Positions 1 to 21,000 of a stretch of 64,000 bases of DNA are shown piece after piece. The stretch covers positions 41,602,001 through 41,666,000 of the forward strand of contig OX597833.1 of NCBI GenBank assembly GCA_951406725.2, given 5' to 3'. Made by a program: the position numbers. This stretch comes from Octopus vulgaris (taxonomy: Eukaryota). Positions within the stretch are counted from its first letter, which is position 1, and the number at the start of each line of letters is the position of its first letter.

Positions 1-3000
1 TTCCATACGATATACCCGGTATAAGCTATGGACACACAAAAGGTGCAGCAATATCAAAGAAGGTTAACTGGGAAGATAGTTTTTGTGTGTGGCAGATGCA
101 CAGGGGCAATAAACACTGAAGATGTACAGAAAATAGATTCCATCACATGCCAGGGGGAGAAACTAGAAAGTATTTAATAGCTTCTGCTACCTTGGCGACC
201 AAGTGAGGCTCTGAGAGTGTCGCGGCTAGAATAAGAATAGCCTGGGCAAAGTTCAGGGAGGTCCTATCTCTGCTGGCAATTAAGGGCCTCTTGGTCAGGA
301 TGAAAGGTAGACTGTATGATGGATGTGTGCGAAGTGCCATGCTACACGGCAGTGAAACATAGGCCACGACTGCTGAGGACATGCACATGCTTGGAAGAAA
401 TGAAGCAAGTATGATCCTCTGGATGTGTAATGTCAGTGTGCATACATGACAGTGTGTAAGGGCCCTGAGAGAAAAGTTGAGTATAAGAAGCATCAAATGT
501 GATGTGCAAGAGTGATGACTGCGCTGGTATGGTCATGTGTTACGTGTAGATGAGGACAGCTGTGTGAGGAAGTACCACTCCCTAAATGTGGAAGGAACCT
601 GTGGAAGAGGTAGACCCAGGAAGACATGGGATGAGATGGTGAAGCATAACCTTCGAACATTAGGCCTCAGAGGCAATGACAGGAGACCAAGACCTTTGGA
701 GATACGCTGTGATTGAGAAGACCCGGCAACTAAAGTTAGATTGCAGCCATGCATATCCGGCCCTGTTAAGAGTACCCCTGATTGTTGTGCGATATGATAT
801 GCTTGAGAAGACCTGTTAAGTAAAACCAGTATTGTAGCTGTGGCCAGTGGCCCCTGACTGGCTCCTGTGCAAGTGGCACGTAAAAAGCACCATTCAAACG
901 TGGCTGATGCCAGTACCCCCTGACTGGCCCCCATGCCATGGCACGCAAAAAGCACTATCTGAACATGATCGATGTCAAGCCCACCTGACTGGCCCCTGTG
1001 CTGATGGCACATAAAAAGCACCCACTACACTCTAGGATTGGTTGGCATTAGGAAGGGCATCCAGCTATAGAAACACTACCAGATCAGATTGGAGTTTGGT
1101 GCAGCTGCTGGCTCTCCAGACTTCAGTCAAACCGTCCAACCCATGCCAGCATGAAAATGGATGTTAAACGATGTGACTGCTCTTTTAGAATGAGAGGGAA
1201 ATGGTGATTAAGAGTAATTATAATAAATGCCAGCTCACATGTTTTGTACAAGAAGTAATGTTGCTAGTTTTTGTTAGGTGCATCTGCTAATGCACAATGC
1301 ATACGTGAACCAGCTATATATTGCGAAATAACAAATATTGCTATAAGAACATCTTTCTCTTTCCGTTTTGATAGCAACCACTCTTCGTCCCATGAACCCT
1401 TCAGTATTCTTATTATTCTGTCAAATGTAATGTTTGTTTATATTGTTTTGAATTAATCATGCATTATCTTGTTTAAAGATTTCTATGATGTGATTGTTTA
1501 GTTTTAGAATGACATCAAATGGTTGAGGTGAGAGGCCAGATCTAGCCAGATACAACACAAAACAGGTTAAATATTTTGGCCAGCTTGAATGCTAAAGGGT
1601 TAAATCAATCTGTCTGAAATTTAGATTGCATGATTGTTAATGCAGGATTTCAGCTGGAAACAGTTCCATCATAGTTTTATGTAAGAACCTTTATATCCCA
1701 AACACTGTATTATAATATTTTAGTATATCACTTCAAATTCTTGATTATTTTGAAAATTGAGACACATAAGCTATCTGTTCTGAGAAATAGTCACAGAAAT
1801 GTTGTTTCTTTTACATCAAGTCTGAATAAGTTTACATTGGTTTTTTCTTTCTGTAATTATCTAAGCAGTTTTACTGGATTATTTATTTCACTGTTTTCTT
1901 TATTAAGAATATAGTATCTTCTTTCATTTATCGTAGACTTAAATTTCTAAAATTTTATAATTTAAAAATAAAATTACATTAAAATACTAAACATAATTTT
2001 CATATTTTAATTTAAATTTAGTATTTTTAAAAATAATAATATAGTTTTATGCACCATCCCTCACAAATACTATTTATATTGCTACTTACAGAGGCTTTCA
2101 TGCAGTAGTGTTTGGCCTAGACGGTGAAATACTCCAGAAACTAACAAGACTTGCACCACCTGTTGGCTTGAAACATCAACTTCCCCAGGATGGCTAACCC
2201 ACTAGCAGATCTGGTCCTTCAACTTTGCAAGAGGAATCAGTATTGCTCTTCAAAGTTCCAAGAACTCCAGCATAAAGAAGAATGGACTACATCAAATAAA
2301 CAAGAGGTTCTTGCACTTCTAGCAGAATTATTCCTTCATCCAACATGTACTGAAGATGTAACATATTGTAGCAGTACAATTCTATTAGATTTGGTTGAGA
2401 GAGTAAAAAGCATGGTAGTGAGTAGTGAGAGCAGTCAGACCACTTCATTGCACCAAACATTCTGCATTGCTCTCAGTAAAGCTGTTAGTACATGCCCTTC
2501 ACTTAAGAAATTTTTTATATTATATCTCAAAAACAGTTCACCTTTCTTGTATTCAGAGCAAGATGTTACTGAACCAGCATCCAAAAAAATGAGACTGGAG
2601 TACAGTCAGTTATCATTATCAGACTCCCATCCTTTAGAACTTGTCCAGACAGCTTATCGCTGTGTTGTGATTTTTGGTCGTGAATCTGAATCAGTGATTT
2701 CACCGGAACATTTATTACCATTTTTATCAAATGCTAACAAAGATGTCCAGTGGTTTACTGTGCAGACACTTGCAACACTTTTGCAGATGTCTGCACGCCA
2801 GCGAGATACTCTCATGAAACGTTACTTTCAACGTGAAGAGATGGTCCAACTGATGTTACGCTATAGAAAGCTTCTGCTTTGGCCAGAAACAAATGTCAAT
2901 GACAATAGAGTAAATGACAAACAGCTAAAGACTGCTACTTACCTGGCTGAAAACAAACTCCTTGATTCACATGTTGTTTCTGTCAGTGGCATACTTCTTC

Positions 3001-18000: not shown

Positions 18001-21000
18001 TGAGTCTTCTAGAAACTGGTGAACTTGCCATTTGTAGCTTTGGGGAAAGCATGCAAGTTATTCACTCGTTTGGTGAACAGTTCTCCTGCCATTCAGGAGC
18101 TCGACTCCTTCAGCATTTTACTTTCACACAAAAGAAGACAAATATTGCTTTGCTCTTGCAGCAAGCTTCTGCATTGATGATGGAAAGCCGTCAGCATTAC
18201 CGTTCTGCTCTATCGGGTCCTGATTTCTCTCAACTGTTGCTGATAGTTTCTGATGGTAGAGGTCTTTTTTCAGAAGGCATGGACTATGTGAAATCTGCTG
18301 TGCGGCAAGCACAAACAGCTAATCTTTTTGTTGTGTTTGTTATACTGGACAATCCGATAAACAGAGATTCCATCCTTGATATTAGGATTCCTGTTTTTAA
18401 GGCATCTGGCCAGTTGCCAGAGATCAAATCTTACATGGACCATTTTCCCTTCCCATTTTACATCATTCTGCGTGACATTGACTCTTTGCCACAGACTCTT
18501 AGTGAAGCTCTCCGGCAGTGGTTTGAACTGGTTACTGCAGAGACACAGTGAGGTGAAGTTTCTGTTGTTGTCACACAAATATAAAGACATATGGCAACAT
18601 TGTTGCAAGATTTATAGAACTGTATTATTTGTGATTGGATTATTCTTCAAATCTTGCTATTCATGTTTTTTTGGTTCTTATTCATCTTTTTTTTTTTTAT
18701 ATATATATTTTGTGTCAATCAAGCAAAGCCAATAAAAGCTATTTTGCTTATTAATATTGACATTATCATTAGCTGCTAATATGTCATCATTTTGTATTCA
18801 GTCCTTTTCATTTTGTGCTCATCTTTGGCACTGTATTTCATCAATGAATCATTAAAATATTTACAAAGTATTGTCTTTATGCTGGTATTTCTGTTTTATG
18901 ACACTGTTATTTCTGTTTTGTTTCCTATCAGTATCAGAGGAGAGAACAAGCAAACATATTTCGTCAACATGCAGTGATGTCAGCATTTGACTGGTTTTGA
19001 AAATACATGAGGTTTTCAGATTAGACAGCACTTTTTAGGTTGGGGAAAATACAGTTTTGACAATGTCAGACTAACAGTTTATAATCAAGGTTACTCATTA
19101 TGTTGGAAACAATTTTTGATCGGTTGTGGTAAATTATGGAAATCAAATTTTAGGAGTATTTGCATCAGGTTCAGATGCAAAATATACTAATTGCTGTAGT
19201 GTACATCAAAGGAGAAAAACCTTTTTTCTATGAGAATAGTGTGTTCAACGCGTTAGACTCATTGATGCAGAGAATTCAAGGACACCAGTGTTTCAACATG
19301 TGCCTTTTCAGCTAGAAGTACAATGCACCTTTGAGTCTAGCCAAGCAGCTGGCCTATATTTATACTTTCAAAGAAGAAAGTGTTTGCTGATCAGAGCTTA
19401 TATCTCCCAACCAATTTAGAATTGTTATTTGCATATTCTTCATATATCCAGGTAATTCCAGATGCCAAATATGCTAGTTTCTGTAGTGTATGTCAAACGC
19501 AAAAAAATTTCCCTATTCTGTGTTGATAATGTGTTCCATACACACTCAACTCAGTGGTGCAAAGGGTTCTGGGACACTGGGGTTTTGCTGTGTCTCAGTA
19601 GCCAGAAATTTTAGAAGATGAAAGTGGAATTGTCTTCATATTTTATACCAAACGAGTTTTGCTTATATGATATGCCAATAGTTTATGTCACTTTAAGGAA
19701 ATCTAACCAGTTCAGACAGTGCCTAGTTTCTTCAAATAATGAGCTTTGCCAGAAATGTTTTCTTAATTTTTGTGACACACCAGCATCATGATTTGAGTAC
19801 ACAGACTCTATCTACAGTATATTAATAGTTTCTGATGTTGCTGTTACTTTACATTTTCATAATCCAAATTTATTAATTCATAGCTTGTTTAAAATCTTTA
19901 TACATTTCTTTTAATTCTAATCATTTAAAAGTTGACTGTTAGTCTCTGTAATACTAACTAAACTCTTGATTAAGGTGGGAAGGTGTTTCATACCTGGGCC
20001 ATCTCTGATTGGGTGGACTCTGATGAGTGTTCTTACCACAACTATGATGTCTTAGTTTTCAGACTGCACTACACAATACTATGAATGTGTCCTTCATTTT
20101 TAATACAGATTTGTCTACTATTTGTGGCAGTATGGTTAACCATGCAGAGCAGTATTGGATCCATCTGGTAAAATTTCATCTGCATTTAAATTTGAAATTG
20201 ACTGCTGATGAAATCTGTAAAACCTATATGTAAAAAACACACCAAATTGTACACTTGTTATTTTGTAAATTTGAAGATTATTTTCTCAGCATAGATTTAC
20301 CCTCACAGGTTCTTGTGCACTTGGAATTTGTCCCCTCCACTAAAGTTTACCTACTTTACTCATACAAACACTCCTTGTTTTTGTTTTACATTTTGGTACA
20401 ATAATAAAAATCTGGTAGCATTCCATGTCTCCTGCAAAAATTGAACCTCATCATTCACGGGCCCTGTTTGGCACTACAGCTTGGCTTTTTTTGCCTTTAG
20501 TTCTTTCTATGTTACAAGCATTCAGACTAGGTTCCTTGTCTGAGAAATTTGTTCCCTTGTTAGTGGATACATATGCTGAATTAACTTTGTAACTGCTATT
20601 CATATTTGGCGCAACAAAATATTTGTTCTTCAGAATTGTGAGATTTGAGACAACTCCATATTCTTTTTGTTCTTTTCATGTTTTTACATTTAGTTTGACC
20701 CTTTTGAAAGGTGTTGCTGTGTGATAAGAAATTTGCTTCCTTACCTCATGGTTTCAGAGTCAGTGCACTGCATGATACATTGGGCAAGTGTCGTTTACTG
20801 TAGCCTCAGGTCAACCAAAGCATTGTGAGTGGATTTGGTGAACAGAAACTGAAAGAAGCCTGTTTGTGTTATTGTCTCTGTTTTGAATTTGCATGATAAT
20901 TGTAAATGTCATGCAAGCAATGTCCTTTGTTTACAATTTGTGTAAACATGTCTAGTTTTGGGGAAGTATTACCGTATTTGGAAACAGGTGATGGTTGACA

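What the first reader, a model, noticed from the sequence alone, without database searches (positions are those of the whole stretch)
2190..18551. Entire Midasin (5453 aa) encoded by one intronless 16.36-kb ORF in an intron-rich genome
Seen: an unbroken ORF with all six AAA modules, linker, D/E tail and MIDAS domain, and no transposon insertion although the flanks are saturated with repeats, so it appears to be under purifying selection. Known: vertebrate MDN1 is split into roughly a hundred exons. Seen: neighbouring NSUN2 keeps at least 19 small exons, so the locus has not lost introns generally. Inference: this is a functional retrocopy, or a whole-gene cDNA-mediated intron purge, of a >16-kb mRNA. 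That is exceptionally long for a retrogene, and it may have replaced the parental gene. RTE LINE remnants nearby point to a possible source of reverse transcriptase.
Basis: partly seen in the sequence, partly recalled or inferred. Interest (0 to 1): 0.82.

Follow-up and report, generated by a model that had tools for sequence, protein, structure and literature searches.

The report
Intronless 16-kb octopus midasin gene
An octopus encodes its entire 5,453-residue ribosome-assembly motor midasin in one uninterrupted exon, although the gene next door has about 19 small exons and mouse midasin has 102, so all coding introns were probably removed through an RNA copy.

Summary
Window 2190..18551 (+) is one ATG-to-stop ORF of 5453 aa and the only ORF of 300 aa or more in the window. 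It has six P-loop AAA modules, midasin-specific lid domains, a linker, a 37% D/E stretch and a MIDAS domain with DxSxS.

It is 5442/5453 identical and colinear with the RefSeq protein "midasin-like [Octopus sinensis]", so the gene is already annotated, with no coding intron. Intra-window repeats cover 0% of the ORF against 22-34% of the flanks. NSUN2 lies downstream on the same strand with about 19 small coding exons.

Three protein searches found one coleoid midasin lineage and no second copy. Domain-graded conservation and intact motifs argue for a functional, sole MDN1.

Wholesale RNA-mediated intron removal is the best explanation. No poly(A) remnant or target-site duplication survives, and retroposition with parent loss cannot be told from cDNA recombination in place.

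No eukaryotic genome DNA was accessible, so intron content and synteny of MDN1 in other cephalopods and molluscs stay untested. It is a new member of a known kind, of moderate interest.

The parts
2190..18551 (+). Complete midasin (MDN1/Rea1) coding sequence, 5453 codons plus TGA, in one uninterrupted exon
   Evidence: colinear with RefSeq midasin-like [Octopus sinensis] (5442/5453 identical, 1 gap)
2169..2171 (+). In-frame TGA 21 nt before the ATG, which fixes the start codon at 2190
3060..9239 (+). AAA+ ring (about aa 291-2350; boundaries are mine). Six P-loops at aa 311, 650, 1054, 1362, 1745 and 2060; midasin lid domains
   Evidence: 91% identical to Argonauta and 59-60% to gastropods/bivalves
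9240..15539 (+). Linker (about aa 2351-4450), the fastest-evolving structured part
   Evidence: Matches the Rea1 linker chain 6hyd (E 6e-46). 82% identical to Argonauta and 29-31% to other molluscs. The only close cluster representative is P0004
15540..17339 (+). D/E-rich region (about aa 4451-5050), 36.7% D+E
   Evidence: strong AT and GC skew at 16-18 kb
17340..18548 (+). C-terminal region with the MIDAS domain; DxSxS at aa 5246-5250
18731..18736 (+). First AATAAA after the stop, a candidate polyadenylation signal. No A-rich remnant follows it
1..1195 (.). Interspersed-repeat fragment bounding the upstream side. It shares repeat families D6, D7 and I20 with copies at 23.5, 26.2, 41.0, 61.7 and 63.4 kb
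26692..63316 (+). Neighbouring NSUN2 gene, about 19 small coding exons separated by introns of 1-4 kb; it runs off the window end

Best explanation
This is the single, functional midasin (MDN1/Rea1) orthologue of an octopus of the Octopus vulgaris/sinensis group. Midasin is the giant AAA+ motor that strips assembly factors from pre-60S ribosomes; that function is inferred from homology.

Its whole coding sequence lies in one exon because all coding introns were removed precisely through a reverse-transcribed copy of the mRNA. Two routes fit equally well here:
(a) A full-length cDNA retroposed to a new locus and the intron-bearing parent was later lost (an 'orphan' retrogene).
(b) One or several cDNAs recombined with the original locus and erased its introns in place.
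I put them at roughly 0.3 and 0.4; the window cannot separate them.

The event is old. No insertion hallmarks survive, and third-position composition equals that of the neighbouring gene.

Shown: the ORF, its domains, its colinearity with the annotation, its repeat-free state, the intron-rich neighbour, and the single-copy status in protein databases.
Inferred: function, purifying selection, the RNA-mediated mechanism and the age.
For: - The ORF has 0 stops in 5453 codons, against 215-573 in the other five frames.
- It has the full midasin architecture with intact P-loops and MIDAS motif.
- The RefSeq O. sinensis protein is colinear: 10 substitutions and a 1-residue indel in an E-run. An independent annotation therefore also places no intron in the CDS.
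- Conservation is graded by domain. Against Argonauta: ring 91%, MIDAS part 92%, linker 82%, D/E region 73%.
- GC3 is 0.333, against 0.343 in the NSUN2 exons.
- NSUN2, 8 kb downstream, keeps about 19 coding exons, roughly one intron per 40 residues. At that density, zero introns in 5453 codons cannot arise by chance.
- Mouse Mdn1 has 102 exons (PMC5809388).
- 5 of the 16 non-cephalopod mollusc midasin entries listed carry 'isoform X' labels, which implies spliced genes there. This is weak evidence.
- Only one coleoid-type midasin lineage was found. There was one entry each for O. sinensis and Argonauta plus two unnamed ones among the 120 listed of near length. There was no cephalopod-like hit among the 120 listed shorter proteins. 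In 1.84 billion cluster representatives searched with the linker, there was one representative at 65% identity and the next at <=30%.
- Orphan retrogenes are a documented outcome (PMC5470649, passages).
Against: - No poly(A) remnant and no target-site duplication were found. That is expected after long decay, but it leaves retroposition without positive evidence.
- Target-primed reverse transcription usually truncates copies at the 5' end (PMC5470649). A full-length copy of about 17 kb in one step would therefore be exceptional.
- The intron content of MDN1 in Nautilus, squids and other molluscs was not examined, so an older or different history is not excluded.
- No transcript data were available. 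Expression, the transcription start and a possible 5'-UTR intron are unverified.
- The protein-database searches cannot see an unannotated or decayed parental copy in the genome.
Confidence: 0.7

Rival explanations
1. Ancestral state: MDN1 was already intron-poor in the molluscan or lophotrochozoan ancestor, so nothing special happened in cephalopods.
For: Insects with compact genomes are recalled to have few MDN1 introns (recalled, not tested).
Against: 5 of the 16 listed non-cephalopod mollusc midasins carry isoform labels. Mouse Mdn1 has 102 exons. Lophotrochozoans are generally known to keep ancestral bilaterian introns (established knowledge, not tested here). The octopus neighbour gene is intron-dense.
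Confidence: 0.1
2. Piecemeal loss: the introns were lost one at a time by many independent genomic deletions over a long period, not by an RNA intermediate.
For: No positive evidence was obtained. It cannot be excluded without intermediate states in related lineages.
Against: It would need on the order of a hundred exact, in-frame deletions in one gene while the adjacent gene kept about 19 exons. The protein is colinear with its orthologues, with no excess of indels in the conserved ring.
Confidence: 0.08
3. Young extra copy: this is a retro-duplicate and an intron-bearing parental MDN1 still exists elsewhere in the genome.
For: The genome itself could not be searched. Long, many-exon genes are often fragmented or missed in annotation.
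Against: No second cephalopod-like midasin was found in three searches. RefSeq names only this one for O. sinensis among the hits listed. The Argonauta and two more distant coleoid-like proteins are full-length orthologues of this copy. No poly(A) or target-site duplication is present, as a young insertion would show.
Confidence: 0.08
4. Artefact: cDNA or transcript sequence was wrongly built into the assembly.
For: None was found.
Against: The ORF is embedded in ordinary repeat-rich genomic DNA on both sides. A second source gives the same colinear ORF: the O. sinensis RefSeq protein on a 55-Mb contig, which differs at 11 positions. NSUN2 is reported on a contig of the same length there.
Confidence: 0.01

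Closest known systems
Orphan retrogenes / retrogene replacement (25 human cases of Ciomborowska et al. 2013 and 10 of Carelli et al. 2016, as summarised in PMC5470649; amphioxus SYCP1, PMC5803294, abstract only)
   Same: A single-exon coding sequence is the only copy of a gene that is multi-exonic in other lineages. It is under constraint and does the parental job.
   Different: No poly(A) remnant, no target-site duplication and no demonstrated change of locus were found here. The size (16.4-kb CDS) is, as far as I recall, far above that of the retrogenes described; no length survey was seen in the passages I read.
Reverse-transcriptase-mediated intron loss by recombination of cDNA with the gene (Fink's yeast model; recalled, no paper read)
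   Same: Introns are removed exactly, the frame and full colinearity are kept, and the gene may stay at its locus. Partial cDNAs in several rounds would suffice for a very long gene.
   Different: The usual cases remove a few adjacent introns with a 3' bias. Here every coding intron is gone. Retention of a 5' intron is only a candidate (an acceptor-like site near 2090) and has no transcript support.
Vertebrate MDN1 and yeast/fission-yeast Rea1/Mdn1 (solved structures 6hyp, 5jcs, 6or5, 6qt8)
   Same: The domain order, the six AAA modules, the linker, the D/E stretch and the MIDAS domain are the same. About 42-45% overall identity to other invertebrate deuterostome/mollusc midasins.
   Different: Gene structure: 102 exons in mouse against one coding exon here.
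Giant single-exon genes of vertebrates such as AHNAK (recalled, not tested)
   Same: A coding exon of more than 15 kb exists in an intron-rich genome.
   Different: Those are lineage-specific repetitive proteins that grew by internal repeats. This is a non-repetitive, universally conserved housekeeping enzyme.

Membership tests
Midasin (MDN1/Rea1) AAA+ ATPase | Six tandem AAA+ modules in one polypeptide with midasin-type lid domains | tested here: met
   Pfam AAA_5 in 7 stretches (E 3e-129), AAA_lid_7, AAA_lid_5 and MDN1_4th. Six Walker A loops; Walker B-like motifs follow them, that of AAA6 degenerate (LVEN)
Midasin (MDN1/Rea1) AAA+ ATPase | Long linker followed by a D/E-rich region | tested here: met
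   PDB 6hyd linker chain at E 6e-46; 36.7% D+E over aa 4451-5050
Midasin (MDN1/Rea1) AAA+ ATPase | C-terminal MIDAS domain with the DxSxS metal site | tested here: met
   PDB 6qt8 (E 3e-67) and 6qta (E 2.5e-38); DDSSS at aa 5246. Pfam VWA scores 23.7 bits, just below its 23.8 cut-off
Midasin (MDN1/Rea1) AAA+ ATPase | Removal of assembly factors from pre-60S particles | not testable with these tools
   Inferred from homology only
Processed retrogene (LINE-mediated retrocopy) | No introns where the parental or orthologous gene has them | tested here: inconclusive
   The CDS is intronless and mouse Mdn1 has 102 exons.
Processed retrogene (LINE-mediated retrocopy) | Poly(A) remnant at the 3' end | tested here: not met
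   No A-run of >=8 between 18552 and 25043, and no 30-mer with >=22 A up to 26000
Processed retrogene (LINE-mediated retrocopy) | Target-site duplications flanking the insert | tested here: not met
   The longest word shared by 1150-2189 and 18552-22000 is 12 nt and lies in a known repeat. 100 shuffles gave 10-16 nt. The ends of any insert are unknown, so this test is weak
Processed retrogene (LINE-mediated retrocopy) | Location unrelated to the parental locus | tested here: inconclusive
   This uses contig length as a proxy. MDN1 and NSUN2 sit on contigs of different length in 8 of 8 other species with both entries, including 3 chromosome-scale molluscs (Haliotis asinina, Gigantopelta aegis, Argopecten irradians). 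They sit on the same 55,351,117-bp contig in O. sinensis. Coleoid genomes are known to be heavily rearranged (PMC8967140, abstract), which could explain this without retroposition
Orphan retrogene (parent lost) | No intron-bearing parental copy left in the genome | tested here: inconclusive
   There is no second cephalopod midasin in the protein searches. The genome could not be searched, and hits below about 1600 bits were not listed
cDNA-recombination intron loss in place | Exact intron removal with the gene kept at its ancestral locus, often sparing 5' introns | not testable with these tools
   Exactness is met (full colinearity). Locus history and the 5'-UTR structure need other genomes and transcripts

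The most novel reading that the evidence does not exclude
A full-length midasin mRNA of about 17 kb was reverse-transcribed and inserted in one step in an early coleoid or octopod, and the copy then replaced the roughly hundred-exon parental gene. That would make it by far the longest functional 'orphan' retrogene known, and the replaced gene is an essential housekeeping gene. It would also imply an unusually processive reverse transcriptase acting on cellular mRNA in a lineage whose known active LINEs are of the RTE type.
Probability: 0.3. Interest if true: 0.72.

Novelty: new member of a known kind. Interest (0 to 1): 0.5.

Why it matters
Wholesale intron loss and retrogene replacement are known mainly from short genes. 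If this is confirmed against intron-rich MDN1 genes in Nautilus and other molluscs, it sets an upper size record of a 16.4-kb CDS and on the order of a hundred introns erased. That constrains how processive the responsible reverse transcription or cDNA recombination can be. It also gives a dated marker for cephalopod genome evolution, and shows that an essential 5453-residue enzyme needs no coding intron for proper expression in an otherwise intron-dense genome. It is also a practical test case: comparing a handful of public assemblies would decide between the two routes.

Tried and rejected
- Pfam on the C-terminal half as a whole gave 0 families at E<=1e-3. The MIDAS domain was then found with the last 383 residues alone and with PDB.
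- One Pfam call failed because a reference contained stop codons. It was resent without the two offending references and with four further ORFs.
- The poly(A) and target-site-duplication searches were negative.
- tRNA (ARAGORN) and Rfam gathering scans of the window found nothing.
- Literature: 'midasin'+'intronless' gave 1 irrelevant paper. 'octopus'+'retrogene' gave 15 papers, none on MDN1. 'MDN1'+'single exon' gave 2 irrelevant papers. 'cephalopod'+'intron loss' gave 15, none on MDN1. 'octopus'+'intronless'+'genome' gave 27, of which 20 were listed, none on MDN1. 'midasin'+'octopus' gave 2 papers, of which 1 was listed, on rotifer transposons.
- One query with min_terms=2 was badly designed and returned only general cephalopod papers.
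- The one 'intron loss' match in PMC6408891 was only a reference-list entry.
- dN/dS could not be computed because no orthologous nucleotide sequence was available.
- Structure prediction, fold search, complex prediction and the protein atlas were not used; the family assignment did not need them.
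Full report
**Observation.**
Window 2190..18551 on the + strand is a single ATG-to-TGA reading frame of 5453 codons. It is the only ORF of 300 aa or more in any frame of the 64-kb window (translation). An in-frame TGA lies 21 nt before the ATG. The other five frames over the same span hold 215 to 573 stops, so the open frame is not chance. 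The window contains no N.

**What it encodes.**
- Pfam finds AAA_5 in seven stretches (E 3e-129) and the midasin-specific AAA_lid_7, AAA_lid_5 and MDN1_4th domains in the first 2700 residues.
- Six Walker A loops lie at residues 311, 650, 1054, 1362, 1745 and 2060. Each is followed by a Walker B-like motif; the one after AAA6 is degenerate.
- Residues 4451-5050 are 36.7% Asp+Glu, against 14.9% for the whole protein, and a DxSxS motif lies at 5246.
- The C-terminal half matches solved midasin/Rea1 chains: 6hyp, 5jcs and 6or5 at E about 4e-116, the isolated MIDAS domain 6qt8 at 3e-67, and the linker fragment 6hyd at 6e-46.
- Pfam VWA reaches 23.7 bits, just under its cut-off of 23.8.

**Whose gene it is.**
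- The best database match is "midasin-like [Octopus sinensis]", 5452 aa. BLASTP gives 5442/5453 identities and one gap.
- A MAFFT alignment places the differences at ten substitutions and one missing Glu in an E-run.
- The window therefore comes from an octopus of the O. vulgaris/sinensis group.
- The public annotation of a second genome source translates the same stretch colinearly, that is, without a coding intron. The gene as such is already annotated.

**Relatives.**
- The next relatives are Argonauta hians (85% identity over the alignment) and two unnamed proteins, P0004 and P0005 (69% and 68%). Those two are 89% identical to each other and are presumably from another coleoid lineage.
- Gastropods, bivalves and amphioxus follow at 42-45%.
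- Conservation is graded by domain. Against Argonauta, the ring is 91% identical, the MIDAS part 92%, the linker 82% and the D/E region 73%.
- Together with the intact motifs, this argues for purifying selection on a working enzyme. dN/dS could not be computed because no orthologous DNA was available.

**Surroundings.**
- A self-comparison of the window shows that intra-window repeats cover none of the ORF. They cover 33.7% of the 2.2 kb upstream, 21.7% of the intergenic stretch and 32.6% of the NSUN2 region (families).
- NSUN2 lies downstream on the same strand. I examined it exon by exon and built no joined model; that step was left out.
- Of the nine NSUN2 pieces scanned with Pfam, three match Methyltr_RsmB-F (one only weakly) and one matches Pre-PUA_NSUN2.
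- One exon, used as a query, retrieved named NSUN2 proteins of O. sinensis and O. bimaculoides.
- Local tblastn of those two proteins maps 16 HSPs, plus one further exon, between 26692 and 63316.
- With two more exons seen by Pfam or by eye (45807-45959 and about 55970-56125), this gives about 19 coding exons, or roughly one intron per 40 residues. The gene runs off the window end.
Third-position GC is 0.333 in midasin and 0.343 in the NSUN2 exons, so the ORF has the composition of its host.

**Is it the only copy?**
- Among proteins of 2999-9543 aa, the 120 listed hits contain one entry each for O. sinensis and Argonauta, the two unnamed coleoid-like ones, and no second cephalopod lineage.
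- Among shorter proteins, the 120 listed hits (down to 1609 bits) are all non-cephalopod or unnamed, at 65% identity or less. Fragments scoring lower would not have been listed.
- A search of 1.84 billion cluster representatives with the fast-evolving linker (residues 2401-3600) returned one representative at 65% identity (P0004). The next was at 30% or less, with nothing in between.
- This fits a single coleoid midasin lineage. It cannot exclude an unannotated or decayed parental copy in the genome.

**How it arose.**
- Mouse Mdn1 has 102 exons (PMC5809388, one passage read).
- Five of the 16 non-cephalopod mollusc midasin entries listed carry 'isoform X' labels. This is weak evidence that those genes are spliced.
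- At the neighbour's intron density, the octopus gene would be expected to hold more than a hundred introns.
- Precise removal of all of them, keeping full colinearity, points to a reverse-transcribed mRNA. This is the only established mechanism for wholesale exact intron loss (established knowledge).
- Two routes are possible: retroposition followed by loss of the parent (orphan retrogene; concept and hallmarks from passages of PMC5470649), or recombination of cDNA with the original locus.

**Tests of the retrocopy hallmarks.**
- There is no A-run of 8 or more for 6.5 kb after the stop, and no A-rich 30-mer.
- The longest word shared by the two flanks is 12 nt, lies inside a known repeat, and falls within the 10-16 nt seen in 100 shuffles.
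- The hallmarks are thus not met. That is expected for an old event, but it leaves retroposition without positive support.
- Target-primed reverse transcription tends to truncate copies at the 5' end. This makes a one-step copy of about 17 kb unlikely and mildly favours stepwise conversion in place.

**Synteny proxy.**
- They lie on contigs of different length in all 8 other species for which both were listed. These include three chromosome-scale molluscs: Haliotis asinina, Gigantopelta aegis and Argopecten irradians.
- The adjacency is therefore not ancestral. However, coleoid genomes are known to be extensively rearranged (PMC8967140, abstract), so this does not decide the matter.

**The 'RTE remnants'.**
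- None of the eight long flank ORFs I scanned has a reverse-transcriptase domain.
- The flanks do carry short ORF fragments that I recall as typical of LINE ORF2 tails. This is recalled, not tested.
- RTE-class LINEs are reported as transcribed and possibly active in O. vulgaris and O. bimaculoides (PMC9115989, abstract and passages), so a source of reverse transcriptase exists in the genus.
- The proximity of remnants says nothing about the source, because the enzyme acts in trans. RTE-type elements are also recalled to prefer their own 3' ends over poly(A) RNA.

**What stayed unchecked.**
- The intron content and synteny of MDN1 in Argonauta, squids, Nautilus and other molluscs were therefore not examined. 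Nor was the presence of parental relics in the octopus genome, nor any transcript evidence.
- P0004 is reported on a 474-kb contig. If that protein was called as a plain ORF, the intronless state would extend to a second coleoid lineage, but how it was predicted is unknown.
- An acceptor-like site about 100 nt upstream of the ATG (near 2090) could mark a 5'-UTR intron. This is unsupported.
- Supplements of the octopus genome papers, which may list exon counts, were closed.
- No paper in the searched library mentions an intronless octopus midasin.

**Verdict.**
An old, RNA-mediated purge of all coding introns in the sole midasin gene is the best explanation (0.7). The choice between orphan retrogene and in-place cDNA conversion is open.
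- It is a new, unusually large member of a known kind, in a gene that is already annotated. Interest is moderate (0.5) and would rise if a handful of genome comparisons confirm intron-rich outgroups.

Noticed in passing
window 38514-39203 (-), inside an NSUN2 intron: A 229-aa open frame with a weak match to the C-terminal part of a helicase model (Pfam Herpes_Helicase, E 1.3e-4, 20.5 bits, below the 27-bit cut-off). By recall it looks like the PIF1-type helicase tail of a Helitron-like element.
   Followed up: partly
window about 545-733 (+), 30185-30358 (-), 40784-41050 (-), each next to copies of repeat families D6/D7/D9: Short ORF fragments sharing a '...RPRK.WDE...L..L.L...' tail, followed by a common repeat of about 250 nt. 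This is the most frequent interspersed repeat in the window. It was recalled as a LINE ORF2 C-terminal tail, but Pfam found nothing in the two pieces tested.
   Followed up: partly
window 26042-26113, 29459-29530, 38363-38434, 56789-56860: Four copies of a 72-nt unit (family D16) that looks like the tRNA-derived head of a SINE. ARAGORN calls no tRNA in the window.
   Followed up: partly
window about 55970-56125 (+), and 52619-52669, 53165-53263, 58497-58607: The two public NSUN2 models disagree. The O. sinensis model (580 aa) ends in the exon at 53165-53263. The O. bimaculoides model (784 aa) reads through past 52618 into 52669 and skips that exon. Neither aligns to the piece at about 55970-56125, which matches Pfam Pre-PUA_NSUN2 (E 9e-11). 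Both models seem incomplete or mis-spliced in this part.
   Followed up: partly
window 39430-40130: A block of about 700 nt of degenerate (CA)n/(CT)n-type low-complexity repeats (family D1) in an NSUN2 intron. It gives several spurious ORFs of 50-120 aa on both strands.
   Followed up: no
window 2040-2189: The AT-rich stretch 1650-2040 ends in an acceptor-like '...ctacttacag' near 2090, and G+C rises from there to the ATG. This is a possible 3' end of a 5'-UTR intron whose upstream exon would lie outside the window. There is no transcript evidence.
   Followed up: no
ORF residues 802, 1255, 2032, 2316, 2722, 3231, 4416, 4666, 4764, 4850, 5341: There are ten substitutions and one single-Glu indel relative to the O. 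sinensis RefSeq protein. NSUN2 exons also differ slightly from the O. sinensis model. The window is therefore probably from a sister species or another individual, not from that assembly.
   Followed up: partly
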